A program made the position numbers and the translations under genes. Shown here piece by piece: positions 2,002-56,803 of a stretch of DNA of 64,000 bases. The first letter of the stretch is position 1. Each line of letters begins with the position of its first letter. Below the pieces are notes generated by a model, which was given only the letters and a program-made list of their open reading frames with translations, ran no database searches and had not been told where the DNA came from. Source of the stretch: Nocardioidaceae bacterium (GTDB lineage: Bacteria; Actinomycetota; Actinomycetes; Propionibacteriales; Nocardioidaceae); NCBI GenBank assembly GCA_033850885.1, contig JAWWPG010000010.1, forward strand, positions 58,093 through 122,092. The letters run 5' to 3'.

Positions 2002-4737
2002 ATGGCTGTCATGGCGACCGGCACGTTGAGGGTCTACCTCGGCACCGCGCCCGGGGTGGGCAAGACGTTCGCCATGCTCAACGAGGGACGGCGTCGCAAG
2101 GAGCGCGGGGCGGACGTCGTGGTGGCATACGTCGAGACCCACGACCGGCCCAGGACGGCCGCGTTGCTGGAGGGCCTGGAGGTGATCCCCCGGCTCCAGG
2201 TCGAGTACCGCGGCTCCAGCTTCGACGAGATGGATCTCGACGCGGTCCTGCGGCGGCGGCCGAGGGTGGCGCTGGTCGACGAGCTGGCGCACACGAACGT
2301 GCCTGGAGTGCGGAACGAGAAGCGCTGGCAGGACGTGCAGGAGCTGCTCGCCGCCGGAATCAAGGTCGTCACCACGGTCAACGTGCAGCACCTGGAGTCC
2401 CTCAACGACGTCGTCGAGAAGATCACTGGGGTGCCGCAACGTGAGCGAGTCCCGGACGAGGTCGTCCGCGACGCGGACCAGGTCGAGCTGATCGACATGA
2501 CGCCGCAGGCGCTGCGCCGCCGAATGGCGCACGGCAACATCTACGGGCCTGAGAAGATCGATGCGGCCCTCTCGAACTACTTCAGAGTCGGCAACCTGAC
2601 CGCGTTGCGGGAGCTTGCCCTGTTGTGGCTGGCCGACAAGATCGACGATCAGCTCGACTCCTATCGCGAGGCCCACTCGATCTCCGGCACCTGGGAGACC
2701 CGGGAGCGGGTTGTCGTCGCCCTGACGGGCGGCCCGGAGGGCAACACCTTGATCCGGCGCGCGGCGCGGATCGCTGCTGGCGCCGCAGGCGGGGACCTGC
2801 TGGCCGTTCACGTCACGAAGCCCGACGGGCTGACCGGCGCCGACCCGCGGACCCTCGCCAACCAGCGGTCACTCGTCGAGTCTCTCGGCGGCAGCTACCA
2901 CCAGGTGCTCGGCGACGACGTGCCGCAGGCCCTGCTGGACTTCGCTCGAGCGGAGAACGCGACCCAGCTCGTCGTCGGCGCCAGCCGGCGCGGCCGGCTC
3001 CAGGCGCTGCTCACCGGTCCGAGCGTCGGTGCGGCCATCATCCGGGAGTCCGGCGACATCGACGTCCACATGGTCAGTCACGAGCGGATCGGCATGGGCC
3101 GGATGCTGCCGTCGATCGGCGGCGGCCTCACCAGGCGTCGGCGGCTGACTGGTGCCGTCGTGGCCGTCGTCCTGCTGCTGGTGCTCACCGTCGGCCTCAG
3201 TCTCGACAGGTCAGCCCTCAACCTCACGAGCGATGTGCTGCTGTTCCTGCTGGCCGTCGTCGCGGTGGCGCTGATCGGAGGTTTCTGGCCGGCCACGGTG
3301 ACGGCCGTCGCCGGCAGCCTGCTGCTGAACTACTACTTCGTGCCGCCGCTGCACACGTTCGACATCGCCGAGCGGAACAACGACCTCGCGCTTCTCGCGT
3401 TCATTGCCGTGGGTGCCATGGTCAGCCGAGTCGTCGATCTTGCCGCTCGCCGAACCAGCGAAGCCGCACGAGCCGCAGCCGAGGCGGAGACACTGTTCAC
3501 GCTCGCCGGCAGCGTGTTGCGCGGCCAGTCGGCGCTTCCGGCGCTTCTCGAGCAGATCCAGACGACGTTCGGTATGACGTCGGTGACGCTCCTCGAGAGG
3601 GGGTCGGCGGAACCGTCGGCCGGGCTCACCGGCGAGCACCTCGACGACCCGGACCCGGCTGACCGGCACGTCTGGCACATCGTGGCCAGCGCGGGCACGG
3701 AACCGTGCCGACGGCCGGAGGAGGCGGACAACGACATCCCGGTCGGTGATGATCTCGCACTAGTGCTGCGTGGGCGGCCACTCCCCGCGGCGGACCGCCG
3801 GGTGCTCGGCGCCTTCGCGGCCCAGACCGCGGTCGCCCTGCAACAGCACCGGCTTGCCGAGGCGGCGGCGGAGGCGGCGCCGCTGGCCGCCGCCGACCGG
3901 ACCCGGACCGCGCTGCTGTCCGCGGTGAGCCACGACTTGCGCACCCCGCTCTCGTCGGCGAAGGCCGCGGTCACCAGCCTGCGCAGCGCCGACATCGAGT
4001 GGTCAGCCGACGAGCGCGGCGAGCTGCTGGCCACGGCCGACGAGTCGCTCGACCAGCTGATCCGGCTGGTGGAGAACCTGCTGGGTGTCAGCCGACTGCA
4101 GGCCGGCGTGGTCAGCGTGTTCGCGCGGCCGATCGGCCTGGACGAGATCGTGCCGCTCGCGCTCGACGACCTCGGCACCGCCGGGCACTCCGTGCAGATC
4201 CAGGTGCCGGACGACCTGCCGGCGGTGCTCGCCGACCCGGCCCTGCTGGAGCGGGTCATCGCCAACGTCGTCGCCAACGCGCTGCGGTACTCTCCGCCCG
4301 ACCTCCCACCCCTCATCACGGCAAGTACGCTGGCCGACTGGATCGAGCTGCGCGTCGTCGACCGTGGTCCGGGCATCCCGGAGACGGAACGAGAGCGCGT
4401 GTTCGCGCCGTTCCAGCGGCTCGGGGACCGTGACAACTCCACCGGGGTAGGGCTCGGCCTCGCGCTGTCCCGAGGGCTTGCGGAGTCGATGGGTGGTTCG
4501 CTCAACCCTGAGGAGACCCCCGGTGGCGGGCTGACCATGGTGGTGCGGCTGCCGCTCGCGCCCGCGCAACTTCCGCCTCCGTCAACAGCGGGGCAGAACG
4601 GGCCGGGAACCGCCAAGGCGGGCCAGGATCGGCATATCGGCACGGTCCGGCATCCGGGCGAGCTGCCGCCCGGCGTCGCCCATTGGATAGAGCGGTCCGC
4701 GGCAGACCGTCGCTCACCGGCGGACGGCTCCCCATGA
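2002..4737 (+). CDS. kdpD: Sensor histidine kinase KdpD
   Basis: N-terminal KdpD P-loop domain (YLGTAPGVGKTFAML), Usp-like region, DUF4118 TM block, H-box SAVSHDLRTPL and HATPase motifs (DRGPGIP, GLGLAL). Confidence 0.95.
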   Translation: MAVMATGTLRVYLGTAPGVGKTFAMLNEGRRRKERGADVVVAYVETHDRPRTAALLEGLEVIPRLQVEYRGSSFDEMDLDAVLRRRPRVALVDELAHTNVPGVRNEKRWQDVQELLAAGIKVVTTVNVQHLESLNDVVEKITGVPQRERVPDEVVRDADQVELIDMTPQALRRRMAHGNIYGPEKIDAALSNYFRVGNLTALRELALLWLADKIDDQLDSYREAHSISGTWETRERVVVALTGGPEGNTLIRRAARIAAGAAGGDLLAVHVTKPDGLTGADPRTLANQRSLVESLGGSYHQVLGDDVPQALLDFARAENATQLVVGASRRGRLQALLTGPSVGAAIIRESGDIDVHMVSHERIGMGRMLPSIGGGLTRRRRLTGAVVAVVLLLVLTVGLSLDRSALNLTSDVLLFLLAVVAVALIGGFWPATVTAVAGSLLLNYYFVPPLHTFDIAERNNDLALLAFIAVGAMVSRVVDLAARRTSEAARAAAEAETLFTLAGSVLRGQSALPALLEQIQTTFGMTSVTLLERGSAEPSAGLTGEHLDDPDPADRHVWHIVASAGTEPCRRPEEADNDIPVGDDLALVLRGRPLPAADRRVLGAFAAQTAVALQQHRLAEAAAEAAPLAAADRTRTALLSAVSHDLRTPLSSAKAAVTSLRSADIEWSADERGELLATADESLDQLIRLVENLLGVSRLQAGVVSVFARPIGLDEIVPLALDDLGTAGHSVQIQVPDDLPAVLADPALLERVIANVVANALRYSPPDLPPLITASTLADWIELRVVDRGPGIPETERERVFAPFQRLGDRDNSTGVGLGLALSRGLAESMGGSLNPEETPGGGLTMVVRLPLAPAQLPPPSTAGQNGPGTAKAGQDRHIGTVRHPGELPPGVAHWIERSAADRRSPADGSP

Positions 4738-37131: not shown

Positions 37132-39402
37132 ATGGTCGTCTCCGTGATCCTGCGAAGAGTGCTGGGCAGCTCCTGGCTGCCGATGATCGCGGCGCTGTTG
37201 GGGATCCTTCTGATCCTCGCCGACCGGAACGTCTCGGCCGGCGACCTCGCTAAGTTCGTCGCCTTCCTGGCCCTGACGGTCGCGTTGCCGGGTGTCTTCA
37301 CGTGGCGGCTCCTGTTGGCCCACCTGCACGCAGGCGAAGCCGACTCTCCGACCTGGTTGGAGGATCTCTCGCTCGGGACCATCTTCGGTTTCGGTGTGCA
37401 GCTGCCCGTCTACCTGCTCGGCGTCTGGATCAACATCCCGTTGCTCTTCCTCGTGCTCCCGGTGGTCGTCATCGTCCTCTCGCTGGCGACCGCCTTCGGG
37501 CGTCGTACCTGGACGCTGCCGACCAGGCAGATCGACGTCAGGGTCTCGTGGTCGCTCGCGGCCATCATGCTGTACGGCGTCGCCTGGCTCGGGCGCTACA
37601 TCTGGCCCCTGCACCCGCTGACGATACCGGCGTACCGGACGCCACGCGTGGACGAGACGTTCCACGAGGCCCTCATCTCCGAGCTCGTGAACCGGTTCCC
37701 GCCACAGATCCCGTACCTGCTGGGGACACCGCTGAACTACCACTGGTTCGCGCACGCCCAGATGGCCGCCGACCATTGGGCGACCGGGCTGGCCAGCCCC
37801 GAGATGCTGACCGAGCTGATGCCATCGGCGCTGCTCGCCCTCACCGTGCTGGGGCTCGGAGCCGTCGCTCTGCGGCTGACGAGCCGCTCTCTCGCCGCGG
37901 TCGTCGCGCCTGGGCTCCTGGTGGCCGGAGGGTTCTGCCTGATGGGGCCGCACTACGACGCGGGCGCCATCACCGAGCCTTACCTGTCGTGGAGGTTCGT
38001 CTCGAGCCCCTCTCAGGCGTACGGCTTCATGATGGCGCTGCCGGCCATCATGTTGATCCTCGAGGTGCTGCGACCCGACCGGAAGCCGCACCGGCTCACC
38101 TGGGTGACCCTTGCCCTGGCCCTCCTTGCTCTGTCCGGCTCGAAGGCGACTTTCATGCCGATCTTCGTCTGCGGAGGGATCGGGCTCGTGCTCGTCCAGC
38201 TCCTGCTCACGCACAGGTTCGACAAGAGAGCTGTGGGACTTGCCGGCCTGCTCGTCGCCGCGGCTGTCTTTGCCCAGCTGGTGATCCTCGGCGGAAGCAC
38301 TGGCGCTCTTGCACTGGACCCGTTCCGCACCGTCCAGACTGCCCTGGCGAAGCAGCACATCCCCGTCAGCCACGGGACGGAGCTGGCGATGACGGTCACT
38401 CTCCTGATCGGATGGCTGCTGTACGGCGCGGGCGTCTTCGGGCTGCTCCGCAACAAGCTATGGCGTGATCCCCGCACCGTGTTCATGGTGATCTGCATCC
38501 CGGCAGGAGTCTCTGTCGCGTTCCTCTTCTTCCGTTCCGGGCTCAGCCAGCTGTGGTTCCAGCGGTCGGTCGCCGAGCTCGTCGTCCTGCTGTCCGCCTG
38601 GGGCCTCACTCAGCTGGTGCCCAGTCCGGTGCCGCAGCGGCTGGGGCTTTACCTCGCGGGCCTTGCCGCGGGCGCGGGGCTGGCGGCGTATCTGGTCAGC
38701 GCATACGCGGAACGGGGCAACGGGGTAGTCATCAAGGCGACCGAGGCCGAGGTCGTTGCCACGGCGTTGGCGCCGTTCCTGGTGGTGGCCGTGTATTTCT
38801 TAGGTCGCCTCGTCCTGGGGGCGGCACATCGTCCGCGACCGGGGCCCGTCATGCTGCTGGCGGTGCTGCTCGGCCTCGGGCTCACGCACGTCTACTCGCT
38901 GGCGTACGACACCGTCTCCCAGAGGAGCGAGCACCATCTCCCACCGCCCAAGCCCCAGTTCGCGCCGGGCGGCGTCGACGCCGCCACCTGGATCGCCGAC
39001 CACTCCGGCCGGTACGACATCGTGGCCACCAACGCGCATTGCCGGCTGCCCGATACTGCGCTGTGCGACAACCGGAACTTCTGGGTGTCGGCGTACACCC
39101 AGCGCCGAGTCGTCATCGAAGGATGGGGCTACACCACAATCACCAACGCGGGCTACTCCGACACCGCCCGCAACCAGAACATCCCGAACCCTTACCCGGA
39201 GCGCCTCAAGATCAACGATGCGGCCTTCGAGAACCCCTCGCCCACGACCGTGAACCGGCTCGTCAACACGTACGGCGTCAAGTTCCTCTTCGTCGACAAG
39301 CAGTATCCCGCCGACGTCCCTGGCATGAAGGCGTTGAAGCCGCTCCTGCACAAGAAGTTCCAGAACCACAACTACGTCGTCTTCAAGGTGGCTCCGAACT
39401 AA
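37132..39402 (+). CDS. Large polytopic membrane protein, GT-C-fold glycosyltransferase candidate
   Basis: 756 aa from the first ATG after the rhaB stop. At least 12 predicted TM helices. An acidic motif (RVDETFHEALISEL) follows the early TM helices, as in GT-C enzymes. About 190-aa soluble C-terminal domain. Confidence 0.5.
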   Translation: MVVSVILRRVLGSSWLPMIAALLGILLILADRNVSAGDLAKFVAFLALTVALPGVFTWRLLLAHLHAGEADSPTWLEDLSLGTIFGFGVQLPVYLLGVWINIPLLFLVLPVVVIVLSLATAFGRRTWTLPTRQIDVRVSWSLAAIMLYGVAWLGRYIWPLHPLTIPAYRTPRVDETFHEALISELVNRFPPQIPYLLGTPLNYHWFAHAQMAADHWATGLASPEMLTELMPSALLALTVLGLGAVALRLTSRSLAAVVAPGLLVAGGFCLMGPHYDAGAITEPYLSWRFVSSPSQAYGFMMALPAIMLILEVLRPDRKPHRLTWVTLALALLALSGSKATFMPIFVCGGIGLVLVQLLLTHRFDKRAVGLAGLLVAAAVFAQLVILGGSTGALALDPFRTVQTALAKQHIPVSHGTELAMTVTLLIGWLLYGAGVFGLLRNKLWRDPRTVFMVICIPAGVSVAFLFFRSGLSQLWFQRSVAELVVLLSAWGLTQLVPSPVPQRLGLYLAGLAAGAGLAAYLVSAYAERGNGVVIKATEAEVVATALAPFLVVAVYFLGRLVLGAAHRPRPGPVMLLAVLLGLGLTHVYSLAYDTVSQRSEHHLPPPKPQFAPGGVDAATWIADHSGRYDIVATNAHCRLPDTALCDNRNFWVSAYTQRRVVIEGWGYTTITNAGYSDTARNQNIPNPYPERLKINDAAFENPSPTTVNRLVNTYGVKFLFVDKQYPADVPGMKALKPLLHKKFQNHNYVVFKVAPN

Positions 39403-54311: not shown

Positions 54312-54423
54312 GCTGTGCGACCAGGAGACCTCGCCTGTACGGACAGTGCCGAGACCTTCTCCGCGGAGCGCTCCGCGGAGCCGATTATCCAAGGGGGAGC
54401 GGCATATCCGGCAGAATGGACCC

Positions 54424-55341
54424 GTGAGCGGCCACCACCACCTTCACGGGTCCTCGACGGTCGAGGAGAACCGTCGGCGTCTCGTCGTGGTGCTCTCGAC
54501 CACGTCCCTCGTGCTGCTGGCCGAGGTGGTCGGAGCGGCGGTCTCCGGCAGCCTGGCGCTACTCGCCGACGCCGGTCACATGCTCACCGACATCGCCGGG
54601 CTGACGCTCGCGCTGGTGGCGGCGGTGCTCGGCCGGCGTCCCGCGACGGACACCCGCACCTGGGGGTTCGTACGCCTCGAGGTGCTGGCCGCCGCCGCGC
54701 AGGCTGCGGTGCTGCTGGCGGTCGGCGGGTTCATCCTCGTCGAGGGGGTACGGCGCCTGGTGTCGCCGCCCGCCGTGGACTCCTCGCTGATGGTGGTCTT
54801 CGGCGCCGTCGGTCTGGCGGGGAACCTGGTCGGCATCGCCGTACTCACGGCCGCGCGGCGCTCGAACCTCAACATGCGCGCCGCCTTCCTCGAGGTGGTG
54901 AGCGACGCACTGGGGTCGTCAGCGGTGATCGTGGCCGCCCTGGTGATCGCCGCGACCGGCTGGCTGCGCGCGGATGCGGTCGCCTCTTTGCTCATCGGGG
55001 TGCTGATCATCCCGCGTACGGTGCGGCTGCTGCGTGACAGCGTCAACGTTCTTCTCGAGTCGACACCGGCAGGGATGGAGCTTGGTGAGGTTCGTGAGCA
55101 CATGCTTCAGCTCCCGCACGTCCACGACGTGCACGACCTGCACGCCTCCCAGGTCGCGACCGGCCTTCCGGTGCTGACGGTCCACGCGGTCGTCGACGAC
55201 GCCTGCTTCCACGACGGGCACCTGATGCAGATGCTCGACGAGCTGCAGGAATGCCTCTTAGGGCACTTCGATGTCCAGCACTCGACGATCCAGTTCGAGG
55301 CGGCGAGCCACTCCGCGCACGAGCACGCTGCCCACCGGTAG
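54424..55341 (+). CDS. Cation diffusion facilitator (CzcD/ZitB-type) exporter
   Basis: His-rich N-terminus (SGHHHLH). CDF signature (SLALLADAGHMLTD), six TM segments and a C-terminal cytoplasmic domain with His residues. Start is uncertain (GTG 54424 vs GTG 54346). Confidence 0.85.
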   Translation: MSGHHHLHGSSTVEENRRRLVVVLSTTSLVLLAEVVGAAVSGSLALLADAGHMLTDIAGLTLALVAAVLGRRPATDTRTWGFVRLEVLAAAAQAAVLLAVGGFILVEGVRRLVSPPAVDSSLMVVFGAVGLAGNLVGIAVLTAARRSNLNMRAAFLEVVSDALGSSAVIVAALVIAATGWLRADAVASLLIGVLIIPRTVRLLRDSVNVLLESTPAGMELGEVREHMLQLPHVHDVHDLHASQVATGLPVLTVHAVVDDACFHDGHLMQMLDELQECLLGHFDVQHSTIQFEAASHSAHEHAAHR

Positions 55342-55350
55342 GGCGCTCGG

Positions 55351-55722
55351 TCAGCGGTGCCTTTTGATGCGCCGGCGCACCAGCTTGCGCCTCGCCTCCG
55401 GGTTCTTGCGCTGGCGAAGATATCCGACGTACGCCGCGGCGCCGATCGCCGTGACTAGCAGCGGCGGTCCAGATGGCTTGAGCGGACCTCGGTGACGCTG
55501 TGAGAGCACGGCTCCCTGCGACTGGTTGGACAGGATCGACCAACGCGCCATGTTCGACAGCGCCGAGCCGAGGCTCATTGAGGACCCGACGGAGAGCGCC
55601 GAGGCAAAGGAGCCGATGCTCCCGAACGACGCGAACGACCCGACGCTGGCAACGGAGAGCGCGGAGCTGTCAGAGGCGACGGACAGGAACGAGTTGCGTG
55701 ACCACAGCGACCAGCTGGACAT
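55351..55722 (-). CDS. Small tail-anchored protein with (Ser-x-x)n triplet repeat
   Basis: ATG 55722 is preceded by GAAGGAG. 123 aa: an S-x-x repeat over residues 2-74, a TM helix (PPLLVTAIGAAAYVGYL) and a polybasic tail. Only the 3' third of track ORF 55351..56352 is accepted. Confidence 0.5.
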   Translation of the reverse strand: MSSWSLWSRNSFLSVASDSSALSVASVGSFASFGSIGSFASALSVGSSMSLGSALSNMARWSILSNQSQGAVLSQRHRGPLKPSGPPLLVTAIGAAAYVGYLRQRKNPEARRKLVRRRIKRHR

Positions 55723-55840
55723 GAACGGCTCCTTCGTGAGCTTCGGCAACGGACGAGCTTGCTGCAGTATGACGCCAGGCCGCTCGTTGATCACCGGGTC
55801 GGTCCGGCCGCTCGCCGCGGCCATGTTTCTCGAGCGGGGT

Positions 55841-56803
55841 ATGCCGACCTCCCGCGACGAGCCGTTGTGGGTAGCGGAGAATGGCGGGGTGAGTCGCCGG
55901 GCGTTGCTGCTGTTCATCGGTCTGGGTGTCGCCTGGGGTATCCCGTACCTGCTGATCAAGGTGGCCGTGCGTGAGCTGTCGCCCACCGAGCTGGTGCTGG
56001 CCCGCACGATGCTCGCGGCGATCCTCCTGCTGCCGGTCGCCGCCGCTCGGCGCGCCGTCGTACCGGTGCTGCGGCACTGGAAGCCACTGCTCGCCTTCAC
56101 GGCGTGCGAGATAGCCATCCCGTGGGTCTCGCTCGGTAGCGCCGAGCAACGGTTGCCGAGCTCGACCACCGGGCTGCTCATCGCCGCCGTACCGATCGTC
56201 GGGATCGCGGTGGCGTTCCTCGGCGGACGGGCCGAGCCGCTTCCCGCGACCGCGTGGGCAGGTCTCGCCCTCGGCATCGCCGGGGTCGGCGCGCTGGTGG
56301 GCCTCGACGTGGGCGGCTCGAACCTGGGCGCGGTGGGAGAGGTCGGGCTCACCGTACTGGGCTACGCCCTCGGACCGGCTATCCTGTCGCGCTACCTCAG
56401 CAGCCTGCCCAGCATCGGCGTCGTCGCGACGTCACTTACCCTGACGTCACTCGTCTACGTCCCCGTGGTCCTGACAACGGACGGGATGCCCTCCTCGTTG
56501 CCTTCGGGAGAGGTCATCTGGTCGGTCGTCCTGCTGGCCACTGTGTGTACGGCGTTAGCGTTCCTGCTCCTCTTCGCCCTCGTCGGTGAGATCGGACCGG
56601 TACGGGCGACAACGATCACATATGTCAACCCCGCCGTCGCGGTAGCTGCAGGGGCGCTCATCCTGAACGAACCCGTGACCGTATGGACCCTCGTCGGGTT
56701 CGTCCTGGTCGTGGCCGGGTCCTACCTGGTCAACCGCCAGCCGAGGAAGGCTCGCGACGTTCCGTCGGACGGGCTGCCGCTGGGGACCCATGCCGGAGGG
56801 TGA
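55841..56803 (+). CDS. EamA/DMT-family transporter
   Basis: Ten TM segments with duplicated EamA halves (LLLFIGLGVAWGIPYLLIKV ...). Start is uncertain (ATG 55823/55841 or GTG 55889). The acidic upstream part of the ORF is rejected. Confidence 0.78.
   Translation: MPTSRDEPLWVAENGGVSRRALLLFIGLGVAWGIPYLLIKVAVRELSPTELVLARTMLAAILLLPVAAARRAVVPVLRHWKPLLAFTACEIAIPWVSLGSAEQRLPSSTTGLLIAAVPIVGIAVAFLGGRAEPLPATAWAGLALGIAGVGALVGLDVGGSNLGAVGEVGLTVLGYALGPAILSRYLSSLPSIGVVATSLTLTSLVYVPVVLTTDGMPSSLPSGEVIWSVVLLATVCTALAFLLLFALVGEIGPVRATTITYVNPAVAVAAGALILNEPVTVWTLVGFVLVVAGSYLVNRQPRKARDVPSDGLPLGTHAGG

What the first reader, a model, noticed from the sequence alone, without database searches (positions are those of the whole stretch)
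55351..55722. Small tail-anchored protein with Ser at every third residue for about 73 residues
**Seen in the sequence**
- A 123-codon minus-strand frame starts at ATG 55722, downstream of GAAGGAG.
- Ser occupies residues 2, 5, 8, … 74 in 23 of 25 consecutive triplets. The two exceptions are Ala.
- The triplets read (M)SSW SLW SRN SFL SVA SDS SAL SVA SVG SFA SFG SIG SFA SAL SVG SSM SLG SAL SNM ARW SIL SNQ SQG AVL S. The x positions are mostly small or hydrophobic.
- A Pro-flanked TM helix follows (PPLLVTAIGAAAYVGYL).
- The protein ends in a 21-aa tail with 12 Arg/Lys.
- There is no N-terminal signal peptide.

**Inference**
A strict three-residue period would place all Ser on one face of a PPII/collagen-like or similar 3-fold helix. 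It could also offer a ladder of O-modification sites. I do not recognise this family.

**Caveat**
The repeat part lies in the GC3-sharing shadow frame of an open plus-strand frame, the acidic upstream extension of the EamA ORF. Codon bias therefore cannot decide between the two frames. The support for this gene is the RBS, the coherent repeat-TM-basic-tail architecture, and the fact that the TM/tail part is open only in this frame.
Basis: partly seen in the sequence, partly recalled or inferred. Interest (0 to 1): 0.6.

Follow-up and report, generated by a model that had tools for sequence, protein, structure and literature searches.

The report
Undescribed serine-every-third small protein family
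The small minus-strand reading frame is a real gene from a large, unnamed family of actinobacterial proteins with a small residue (almost always serine) at exactly every third position for about 70 residues; neither its fold nor its function matches anything described.

Summary
Ser fills 23 of 25 consecutive triplets (0 of 200,000 shuffles reach this). GAAGGAG lies 6 nt before the ATG, and a hydrophobic helix and a 21-aa tail with 12 Arg/Lys follow.

The coding-strand doubt is settled for the minus frame.
- Ser is written with five codons from both codon families.
- 7 of 23 Ser columns switch between TCN and AGY among orthologues.
- dN/dS is 0.15-0.24 in this frame and 0.36-0.73 in the acidic shadow frame.
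- The same shadow frame runs into different genes, or none, in other genomes.

The gene belongs to a family of at least 1,267 clusters at 50% identity. The family is patchy across Actinomycetota, usually single-copy and stand-alone. It has no credible match in Pfam, NCBIfam, PDB, PADLOC or PHROGs, and four paper searches found nothing on it.

The repeat unit is a nonapeptide, S-x-L-S-I-G-S-x-G. Exceptions at the Ser position are Ala, Cys or Gly and almost never Thr. That points to tight packing of a small side chain and argues against a ladder of O-modification sites. Proline is absent, which argues against a collagen or PPII helix. Only about half of the family carries the membrane anchor. 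AlphaFold2 gives no confident fold for the repeat. Function is unknown. My best guess is a self-packing array held at the membrane.

The parts
55351..55722 (-). Coding sequence of the 123-aa serine-triplet repeat protein (stop codon 55351-55353 included)
   Evidence: Translation. Homologues found. dN/dS is 0.15-0.24 in this frame and at least 0.36 in every other frame. TCN/AGY switches occur in 7 of 23 Ser columns.
55729..55735 (-). Shine-Dalgarno sequence GAAGGAG, 6 nt before the ATG
   Evidence: Read from the sequence. Purine-rich sites stand at the same place in L002, L003 and L008.
55699..55713 (-). N-terminal W-S-L-W-S motif (residues 4-8; family consensus S-R-W-S-L-W-S)
   Evidence: Column composition of the 84-member alignment A2.
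55501..55719 (-). Serine-every-third array, residues 2-74; nonapeptide unit S-x-L-S-I-G-S-x-G, uncharged from residue 19 to 59
   Evidence: Insertions in relatives are 9 residues long.
55528..55545 (-). Second Arg-Trp motif R-W-S-I-L-S (residues 60-65), closing the uncharged core
   Evidence: The spacing from W4 to W61 is 57 residues in all 22 representatives that have both motifs.
55468..55500 (-). Basic linker, residues 75-85 (QRHRGPLKPSG)
55417..55467 (-). Pro-flanked hydrophobic helix PPLLVTAIGAAAYVGYL (residues 86-102), the putative membrane anchor
   Evidence: AlphaFold2 models a helix with pLDDT of about 90. Hydropathy. The segment is present in 85 of 165 family representatives.
55354..55416 (-). 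Basic C-terminal tail, 21 aa with 12 Arg/Lys; unusually long for the family (median 9 aa, net charge +3)
55526..55823 (+). Acidic shadow frame upstream of the EamA gene; not coding
   Evidence: dN/dS is 0.36-0.73, against 0.15-0.24 for the sense frame. Mean amino-acid identity is 0.44 against 0.63, and L012 has a stop in this frame. The same frame joins a UppS-like ORF in L002 and the antisense of a glucosidase gene in L004. EamA homology starts near residue 123-137 of the 425-aa ORF.
55824..56803 (+). Divergent neighbour, an EamA-family transporter; the true start is probably between 55824 and 55890
   Evidence: Pfam PF00892 and NCBIfam matches.
54346..55341 (+). Convergent neighbour with a cation-diffusion-facilitator-like sequence (my reading; no domain search was run). 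Its stop lies 9 bp from the stop of the small gene.
   Evidence: ORF list. The neighbour is conserved in L002 and is also found in G005 and G007.

Best explanation
Window 55722-55351 (minus strand) is a real, translated, stand-alone gene. It is one member of a large and so far undescribed family of small Actinomycetota proteins.

Family plan, shown by alignment:
- a short N-terminus without a signal peptide, carrying S-R-W-S-L-W-S;
- 22-24 consecutive triplets with Ser at the first position, arranged as the nonapeptide S-x-L-S-I-G-S-x-G;
- a closing R-W-S-x-M-S motif and a basic stretch;
- in about half of the members, including this one, a Gly/Pro-preceded hydrophobic helix with a short basic tail.

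How it most likely works (inferred):
- The periodic Ser is a packing residue, not a modification site. Only small side chains are tolerated there, and Thr is excluded.
- The uncharged, proline-free array is rich in Val, Ile and Gly. It probably forms a regular, tightly packed repeat structure.
- That structure would self-associate at or in the cytoplasmic membrane. The Arg-Trp motifs at both ends and the C-terminal helix would hold it there.
- The cellular role is not known. The gene is accessory and has no fixed partner genes.

My odds for each step:
- real gene and family membership: about 0.95;
- steric constraint rather than chemical modification: about 0.6;
- membrane-associated, self-packing array: about 0.4.
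For: Coding strand:
- Ser is encoded by TCG, TCC, AGC, TCA and TCT.
- 7 of 23 Ser columns use both TCN and AGY across 9 orthologues.
- Mean amino-acid identity is 0.63 in the sense frame and at most 0.45 in the other frames.
- dN/dS is 0.15-0.24 in the sense frame, 0.36-0.73 in the shadow frame and about 1 or more in the rest.
- dN/dS is 0.19-0.50 over the linker and helix.

Start of the gene:
- GAAGGAG stands 6 nt before the ATG.
- The first column of the 84-member alignment is M, V or L in 99% of sequences.
- Stops lie just upstream of the start in L004 and L008.

The family:
- 21 word-index homologues.
- 1,267 clusters at E<=1e-3 and 579 at E<=1e-10.
- 24 of 401 genomes sampled across the phylum, mostly in one copy.
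- Carriers include Nocardioides, Ornithinicoccus, Micrococcales and Streptomyces.

Stand-alone gene:
- The neighbours differ at every locus examined.
- A same-genus genome has a LysR gene in this slot and no small gene.

Packing argument:
- Non-Ser residues at the periodic position are A 99, C 32, G 13 and T 4, out of 3,748 sites.
- L13, I15, L22, G28 and G37 are 94-100% conserved.
- Insertions are 9 residues long.
- The Trp-to-Trp spacing is fixed at 57 residues.
- Pro is 0.1% of the array; Val plus Ile make up 46% of the second register.

Anchor: AlphaFold2 models a helix at 86-122 with pLDDT of about 90.
Against:
- AlphaFold2 gives no confident fold for the repeat: pLDDT 36-57 with 25 and with 84 sequences. 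The packed-array idea therefore rests on sequence statistics only.
- Half of the family lacks the hydrophobic helix, so the anchor is not essential to whatever the repeat does.
- Basic residues flank the helix on both sides, so the topology cannot be settled. In this member the C-side charge, about +7 against +3, would put the tail inside and the 85-residue repeat outside, with no signal peptide to take it there.
- No functional clue comes from gene context.
Confidence: 0.75

Rival explanations
1. The minus frame is a chance shadow ORF. The real coding sequence is the acidic plus-strand extension of the EamA gene, or the region is non-coding.
For: The plus frame 55526-56803 is open and shares third codon positions with the minus frame, so GC3 is 0.89 in both.
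Against: - The shadow frame has higher dN/dS (0.36-0.73 against 0.15-0.24) and lower identity (0.44 against 0.63), and it carries a stop in L012.
- Where Ser codons switch between TCN and AGY, the shadow residue flips between Asp/Glu and Leu.
- The same acidic frame is joined to a UppS-like ORF in L002 and to nothing real in L004.
- EamA homology begins only near residue 123-137 of the 425-aa ORF.
Confidence: 0.02
2. The repeat is exported (N-terminus out, C-terminus in, with the helix acting as a reverse signal anchor). It then serves as a ladder of O-glycosylation or phosphorylation sites, like the (Ala-Ala-Thr)n antifreeze glycoproteins.
For: - There is a Ser at every third residue.
- Positive charge is greater on the C-side of the helix in 60 of 85 anchored members.
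- A sugar-decoration gene cluster lies 9 kb away.
- A Ser/Thr kinase gene lies 45 bp upstream of the Streptomyces longwoodensis homologue.
Against: - Thr almost never replaces Ser (4 of 156 exceptions), whereas Ala and Cys do.
- The intervening Leu, Ile and Gly positions are 94-100% conserved, which is unlike a disordered acceptor region.
- There is no signal peptide, and half of the family has no helix at all.
- The glycosyltransferase of the nearby cluster does not co-occur with the family in 41 relatives. They overlap in 2 of 6 carriers.
- No kinase-like ORF stood out upstream of the gene in four other loci from large Actinomycetes genomes. This was judged by eye, without a domain search.
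Confidence: 0.12
3. It is a ribosomally made precursor or effector of the HxsA/FxsA type. Its three-residue repeats would be cross-linked or otherwise matured by radical-SAM/SPASM enzymes.
For: - The only database signal is a weak match to NCBIfam HxsA4: E=0.0037 here, and 52 of 84 family members match with a best E of 1.3e-7.
- HxsA is a small protein with His-Xaa-Ser repeats that is matured by the rSAM enzymes HxsB/HxsC (PMC13128918).
Against: - The score of 18 bits is far below the 55-bit cut-off.
- The repeats contain no His.
- No SPASM domain was found in this 95%-complete genome, while the same search found it in 8 control genomes.
- No maturase gene stood out at any locus examined.
- At 123 aa with a membrane helix, the protein is unlike a short precursor peptide.
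Confidence: 0.03
4. The uncharged 40-residue core is itself a pair of Ser/Gly-rich transmembrane helices. The protein would then be a small pore-forming or membrane-perturbing factor, like a holin or a toxin.
For: - Residues 19-59 carry no charge and have Kyte-Doolittle means up to 1.3, above the annotated helix.
- Arg-Trp motifs flank the core at a fixed spacing.
- The protein is small, carries a basic C-terminus and has a patchy, stand-alone distribution.
- AlphaFold2 draws the core as a helix, at low confidence.
Against: - In an alpha-helix a period of exactly 3 spreads Ser, the hydrophobic residues and Gly all around the axis (geometry, not a tool result).
- Val, Ile and Gly are also compatible with beta structure.
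- A hairpin followed by the last helix would put the very basic tail outside the cell.
- No antitoxin, lysis or phage context was found, and PADLOC and PHROGs have no match.
Confidence: 0.15
5. The array forms a collagen-like or polyproline-II/polyglycine-II type three-fold helix.
For: The three-residue period is exact. The third register follows an L-G-G pattern that could give knob-and-hole packing between three staggered strands.
Against: - Pro is 0.1% of the array.
- Gly is not present in every triplet (37% of its register).
- The invariant residue is Ser, which is too large for a collagen core (established knowledge of collagen).
- Pfam Collagen does not match.
- AlphaFold2 gives no such model.
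Confidence: 0.07

Closest known systems
HxsA, the His-Xaa-Ser repeat effector of the HXS anti-phage system (NCBIfam NF038313 HxsA4; PMC13128918)
   Same: It is a small protein with Ser recurring every third residue. It gives the only database hit, and that hit is sub-threshold.
   Different: The repeats here contain no His, and the score is 18 bits against a 55-bit cut-off. HxsA has five repeats, whereas this protein has about 25 triplets. HxsA has a peptidoglycan-binding domain, is processed at its N-terminus and acts in the periplasm, and it depends on the rSAM enzymes HxsB/HxsC. This genome has no SPASM-domain gene.
RTX nonapeptide beta-roll (GGxGxDxUx; Pfam HemolysinCabind)
   Same: Both are tandem nonapeptides that combine a Gly-rich part with conserved aliphatic positions. 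Insertions come in 9-residue steps.
   Different: There is no Asp for calcium binding, the hydrophobic positions are offset, and Ser appears three times per unit. Pfam gives no match. The protein has no secretion signal. AlphaFold2 does not build a beta-roll.
Gly-X-Y collagen and polyglycine-II bundles (for example snow-flea antifreeze protein)
   Same: Both show a strict three-residue period with a small residue at one position.
   Different: The small residue is Ser, not Gly. There is no Pro, and the other two positions are hydrophobic. This comparison is from memory; only the Pfam Collagen non-match was tested.
Antifreeze glycoproteins, (Ala-Ala-Thr)n with a glycan on every third residue
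   Same: Both place a hydroxyl residue at every third position.
   Different: Thr is excluded here, and the flanking positions are strongly conserved. There is no export signal. The comparison is from memory.
Bacterial tail-anchored membrane proteins (described in Streptomyces coelicolor; recalled from memory, not checked here)
   Same: There is no N-terminal signal peptide, and a single hydrophobic helix lies near the C-terminus in this member.
   Different: The 21-residue, +11 tail after the helix is hard to translocate. Half of the family has no helix.

Membership tests
HxsA / His-Xaa-Ser repeat proteins | Score above the NCBIfam curated cut-off | tested here: not met
   The score is 18.1 bits against a cut-off of 55. 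The best family member reaches only E=1.3e-7.
HxsA / His-Xaa-Ser repeat proteins | His-Xaa-Ser tripeptide repeats | tested here: not met
   The protein has 2 His in total and none in the repeat.
HxsA / His-Xaa-Ser repeat proteins | Partner radical-SAM/SPASM maturases (HxsB, HxsC) | tested here: not met
   No PF13186 SPASM match was found in the window's own genome, while the search found SPASM in 8 control genomes. No maturase gene stood out at any of the other loci examined.
RTX calcium-binding nonapeptide repeats | Match to the GGxGxDxUx consensus / Pfam HemolysinCabind | tested here: not met
   Pfam gave no hit at E<=1 for this protein, and none of 84 members matched at E<=0.01. The unit has no conserved Asp.
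Left-handed beta-helix hexapeptide repeats (Pfam Hexapep) | [LIV]-[GAED]-x2-[STAV]-x hexads recognised by the Pfam model | tested here: not met
   Pfam gave no hit. The second hydrophobic residue falls at i+3 rather than i+4. AlphaFold2 builds no beta-helix.
Collagen-like triple helix | Gly at every third residue, and a proline-rich sequence | tested here: not met
   Gly makes up 37% of its register and Pro is 0.1% of the array. Pfam gave no match.
Sortase or other C-terminal sorting-signal substrates | N-terminal signal peptide plus an LPXTG-type motif before the helix | tested here: not met
   There is no signal peptide, and the start is fixed by upstream stops in orthologues. The sequence before the helix is LKPSGPP, and the family consensus is G-P-P.
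Tail-anchored membrane proteins | No signal peptide, and a single hydrophobic helix close to the C-terminus | tested here: met
   Searches show this for the present member. The feature is absent in 80 of 165 family representatives.
Tail-anchored membrane proteins | N-terminal domain in the cytoplasm and a short translocated tail | not testable with these tools
   The charge balance (about +7 after the helix, +3 before it) argues against translocation of the tail. A topology experiment is needed.
Serine-triplet repeat family (unnamed; defined here) | The S-R-W-S-L-W-S start, at least 20 S-x-x triplets as S-x-L-S-I-G-S-x-G nonapeptides, a closing R-W-S motif, and a basic C-terminal part | tested here: met
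   Alignments A1 and A2. A near-identical copy of this protein (P0003, 98% identical) scores E=2.3e-47 against the family profile.

The most novel reading that the evidence does not exclude
The (Ser-aliphatic-Leu/Gly/Gly)n nonapeptide array is a previously unseen protein architecture. It would be a three-fold-periodic, serine-packed solenoid or multi-strand rope that forms only on self-assembly. In that case this large actinobacterial family builds membrane-tethered filaments or sheets with a structural or barrier role in the cell envelope.
Probability: 0.18. Interest if true: 0.8.

Novelty: categorically new. Interest (0 to 1): 0.6.

Why it matters
More than a thousand sequence clusters across Actinomycetota, including Streptomyces, carry a small gene under clear purifying selection. 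Its protein follows a rule not seen in described repeat families: a small residue at exactly every third position for about 70 residues, in a nine-residue super-repeat without charge or proline. It has no Pfam or NCBIfam model and no solved relative, and four paper searches found no study of it.

High-GC gene callers often mis-start it, which produces many spurious N-terminal extensions. A reader can also mistake it for a shadow frame. A structure could reveal a new fold class. A phenotype would assign a role to a widespread unknown gene. The codon-family switch test used here is a simple way to decide the coding strand when two frames share GC3.

Tried and rejected
- **Domain and family libraries.** Pfam, NCBIfam, PADLOC and PHROGs gave nothing credible.
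- **Solved structures.** A PDB profile search matched only artificial Gly-Ser linkers in engineered constructs.
- **AlphaFold2.** Runs with 25 and with 84 sequences left the repeat at pLDDT 36-57. I did not run a fold search, because it would be meaningless on such a model.
- **Literature.** Searches for the periodicity phrase and for motif strings (WSLWS, LSIGSVGS and similar) found no relevant paper.
- **Mobile elements.** Searches of plasmids, phages and IMG/VR viral contigs found no match. BLAST's low-complexity filter may have hidden hits in the first two.
- **DNA or RNA explanations.** Only a 23-bp stretch with a 9-bp period was found, and there was no Rfam match.
- **Link to the nearby sugar-decoration cluster.** Its large membrane glycosyltransferase does not co-occur with the family.
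- **Link to Ser/Thr kinases.** A kinase sits next to the gene only in Streptomyces longwoodensis.
- **Radical-SAM maturation.** The genome has no SPASM domain.
- **Shared upstream motif.** None was found. Several homologues do show a -10-like hexamer 6-8 nt before the ATG.

Full report
**1. The observation**

The minus-strand frame from ATG 55722 to TGA 55353-55351 encodes 123 residues.
- Residues 2, 5, ... 74 are Ser in 23 of 25 triplets. The two exceptions, A59 and A71, are Ala.
- In 200,000 shuffles of residues 2-75, no register ever held 23 Ser.
- GAAGGAG lies 6 nt before the ATG.
- Residues 86-102 (PPLLVTAIGAAAYVGYL) are hydrophobic. The last 21 residues include 12 Arg/Lys.
- The hydrophobic segment is modest. 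Its Kyte-Doolittle 19-residue mean is about 1.0, below the 1.3 reached inside the repeat.

**2. Which strand codes**

Third-position GC cannot decide: it is 0.89 in the repeat part of the minus frame and in the plus-frame extension. Three other lines do decide.
- *Codon families.* The periodic Ser is written with five codons from both families (TCG 9, TCC 8, AGC 5, TCA 3, TCT 2). In the shadow frame a TCN Ser reads as Asp or Glu, and an AGY Ser reads as Leu. The perfect period therefore exists only in the minus frame.
- *Switches among orthologues.* In a codon alignment of nine orthologues, 7 of 23 Ser columns use both TCN and AGY. That change needs at least two substitutions and keeps Ser.
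- *Selection.* Over the ungapped 66-residue core, mean pairwise identity is 0.63 in the sense frame and at most 0.45 in the other five. The sense frame is also the only one without stops. dN/dS against five orthologues is 0.15-0.24 in the sense frame, 0.36-0.73 in the acidic shadow frame and about 1 or more elsewhere. The linker and helix give 0.19-0.50.

The shadow frame is also not tied to EamA. In a same-genus genome (L002) it runs into a UppS-like ORF. In L004 it is the antisense of an alpha-glucosidase gene. EamA homology starts only at about residue 123-137 of the 425-aa ORF. That leaves roughly 100 bp of divergent intergenic DNA.

The start codon is supported in three ways.
- A ribosome-binding site precedes it.
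- The first alignment column is M, V or L in 99% of 84 family members.
- Stop codons lie three codons upstream in L004 and L008. These stops also exclude an N-terminal signal peptide.

**3. The family**

- A word-index search gave 21 homologues.
- An exhaustive profile search gave 1,267 clusters (at 50% identity) at E<=1e-3, 579 at E<=1e-10 and 33 at E<=1e-30.
- In genomes the family is patchy. It occurs in 6 of 41 close relatives and in 24 of 401 genomes sampled across the phylum (18 of 249 genera), usually as one copy.
- Named carriers include Nocardioides, Ornithinicoccus, Micrococcales, uncultured Actinomycetota and Streptomyces longwoodensis.
- The consensus reads M-S-R-W-S-L-W-S-E-D-(S-V-L-S-I-G-S-x-G)n ... 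S-R-W-S-V-M-S-W-R-S, followed by a basic stretch.
- Ser columns are 89-100% Ser. L13, I15, L22, G28 and G37 are 94-100% conserved.
- Insertions in relatives are nine residues long. The two Trp motifs are 57 residues apart in all 22 representatives that have both.
- Runs of 22-24 triplets are typical.
- Only 85 of 165 representatives have a hydrophobic segment after the repeat. The rest end in a short basic tail.
- The present member has the anchor and an unusually long, very basic tail. The family median is 9 residues with net charge +3.

**4. Gene context**

No neighbour recurs across the loci examined:

| Locus | Neighbours |
|---|---|
| This window | CDF-type and EamA transporters |
| L002 | CDF-type transporter, UppS-like ORF |
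| L004 | aldo-keto reductase, alpha-glucosidase |
| L008 | LysR, PstS |
| S. longwoodensis | Ser/Thr kinase, then VWA and AAA genes |
| L012 | ABC transporter, two-component system |
| Other loci | HbpS/DinB; phospholipase D; SDR |

- L008 keeps partial synteny with the window (Fpg, EamA, the small gene, PstS) but has a LysR gene inserted.
- A same-genus genome without the small gene has a LysR gene, and no small gene, between the CDF-type and EamA genes.
- The gene is therefore an accessory, independently transcribed unit. Several homologues carry a -10-like hexamer 6-8 nt before the ATG, which suggests leaderless transcripts (inference).

**5. What the sequence statistics say about mechanism**

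- At 3,748 periodic positions in 165 representatives, 156 are not Ser: Ala 99, Cys 32, Gly 13, Thr 4 and others 8.
- Thr is one mutation from either Ser codon family, and it is interchangeable with Ser for kinases and O-glycosyltransferases. Its exclusion, with Ala, Cys and Gly accepted, points to a limit on side-chain size. That means tight packing, and it argues against a ladder of modification sites.
- The near-invariance of the intervening Leu, Ile and Gly positions argues against a disordered acceptor region.
- Pro is 0.1% of the array and Gly fills only 37% of its register. A collagen or PPII helix is therefore unlikely.
- Val plus Ile make up 46% of the second register. About 40 residues in the middle carry no charge and are bracketed by Arg-Trp motifs. 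This composition fits either a beta-strand/turn solenoid or membrane-embedded helices. A soluble surface with no charged residues would be unusual.
- I therefore favour a self-packing array at or in the membrane. This step is inference.

**6. Structure prediction and topology**

- AlphaFold2 did not help for the repeat. pLDDT was 36-52 with 25 sequences and 45-57 with 84.
- It is confident only for the C-terminal helix (pLDDT about 90).
- Topology cannot be settled. The positive-inside rule puts the tail of this member in the cytoplasm, which would leave an 85-residue N-terminal domain to be exported without a signal peptide. The alternative would export a +11 tail.

**7. Comparison with known families**

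- *HxsA.* The only database signal is a sub-threshold match to NCBIfam HxsA4: 18 bits against a cut-off of 55, with 52 of 84 members matching weakly. HxsA is the His-Xaa-Ser effector of an anti-phage system. It is matured by two rSAM enzymes and acts in the periplasm (PMC13128918). The present protein has no His repeats, and its genome has no SPASM-domain gene. The likeness is periodic Ser only.
- *RTX, hexapeptide and collagen repeats.* Each shares one feature (a nonapeptide, a Gly-plus-aliphatic pattern, or a period of three). Each fails its defining tests.
- *PDB.* Only engineered Gly-Ser linkers matched.
- *Defence, phage and mobile elements.* No defence-system, phage-family, plasmid or viral-contig match was found.
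- *Literature.* Motif and phrase searches found no relevant paper.

**8. Earlier notes of this scan**

After reaching these conclusions I looked up earlier notes. Eight follow-ups on other genomes met the same family. They reached the same verdict: a real gene, a large undescribed family, a nonapeptide unit, HxsA or RTX as the nearest likeness, and unknown function. These are the same kind of analysis, so I do not count them as independent evidence.
- the Thr-exclusion statistic;
- the six-frame dN/dS comparison;
- the negative co-occurrence test with the nearby sugar cluster;
- the variable LysR/small-gene slot.

**9. Verdict**

The family lies outside every described repeat class I could test.

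Noticed in passing
window 55342-55350: The stop codons of the convergent CDF-type gene (55341) and the small gene (55351) are only 9 bp apart, and no terminator-like hairpin lies between them. Their transcripts probably overlap at the 3' ends.
   Followed up: partly
window 55806-55822: A GC-rich hairpin (6 G-C pairs) followed by a T-rich run lies on the plus strand, immediately before the candidate EamA start ATG at 55824. It may be a 5' regulatory structure rather than a terminator.
   Followed up: no
L036 2464-3426 (G005) and L008 6974-7921: Contents of the slot next to the EamA gene differ between relatives. G005 has a LysR regulator there, between the CDF-type and EamA genes, and no small gene. 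L008 has LysR and the small gene between EamA and PstS, with no CDF-type gene. The window has only the small gene. This looks like local gene loss in both directions.
   Followed up: partly
L010 and L011 6310-8390 (Streptomyces longwoodensis): The family member lies 45 bp downstream of a 548-aa Ser/Thr protein kinase gene on the same strand. No kinase-like ORF stood out upstream of the gene in four other loci from large Actinomycetes genomes (judged by eye).
   Followed up: partly
L005, L006, L022, L030, L032 (upstream of the family gene): A -10-like hexamer (CAGAAT, CATAAT, CACAAT or CAGTAT) ends 6-7 nt before the ATG. This is the spacing expected for leaderless mRNAs in actinobacteria. The window's copy has a Shine-Dalgarno site instead.
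   Followed up: no
L027 and L029 (G123, G421): Two family members lack the hydrophobic helix and end in a shared ...PDLRVAP(T/V)CHCQT tail with a Cys-His-Cys motif. This may be a metal-binding variant of the C-terminus.
   Followed up: no
G026, G030, G034, G038 (same order, genus g21): The 756-aa membrane glycosyltransferase-like protein encoded at window 37132-39399 has 5-13 paralogues per genome in one large-genome genus. Several of them lie in clusters.
   Followed up: no
P0003, P0005, P0008, P0013, P0015 and many representatives: Public gene calls for this family often start far upstream of the conserved Met. That adds spurious Arg/Pro-rich N-terminal extensions of 30-130 residues. The 98%-identical P0003 is called at 157 aa instead of 123.
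   Followed up: partly
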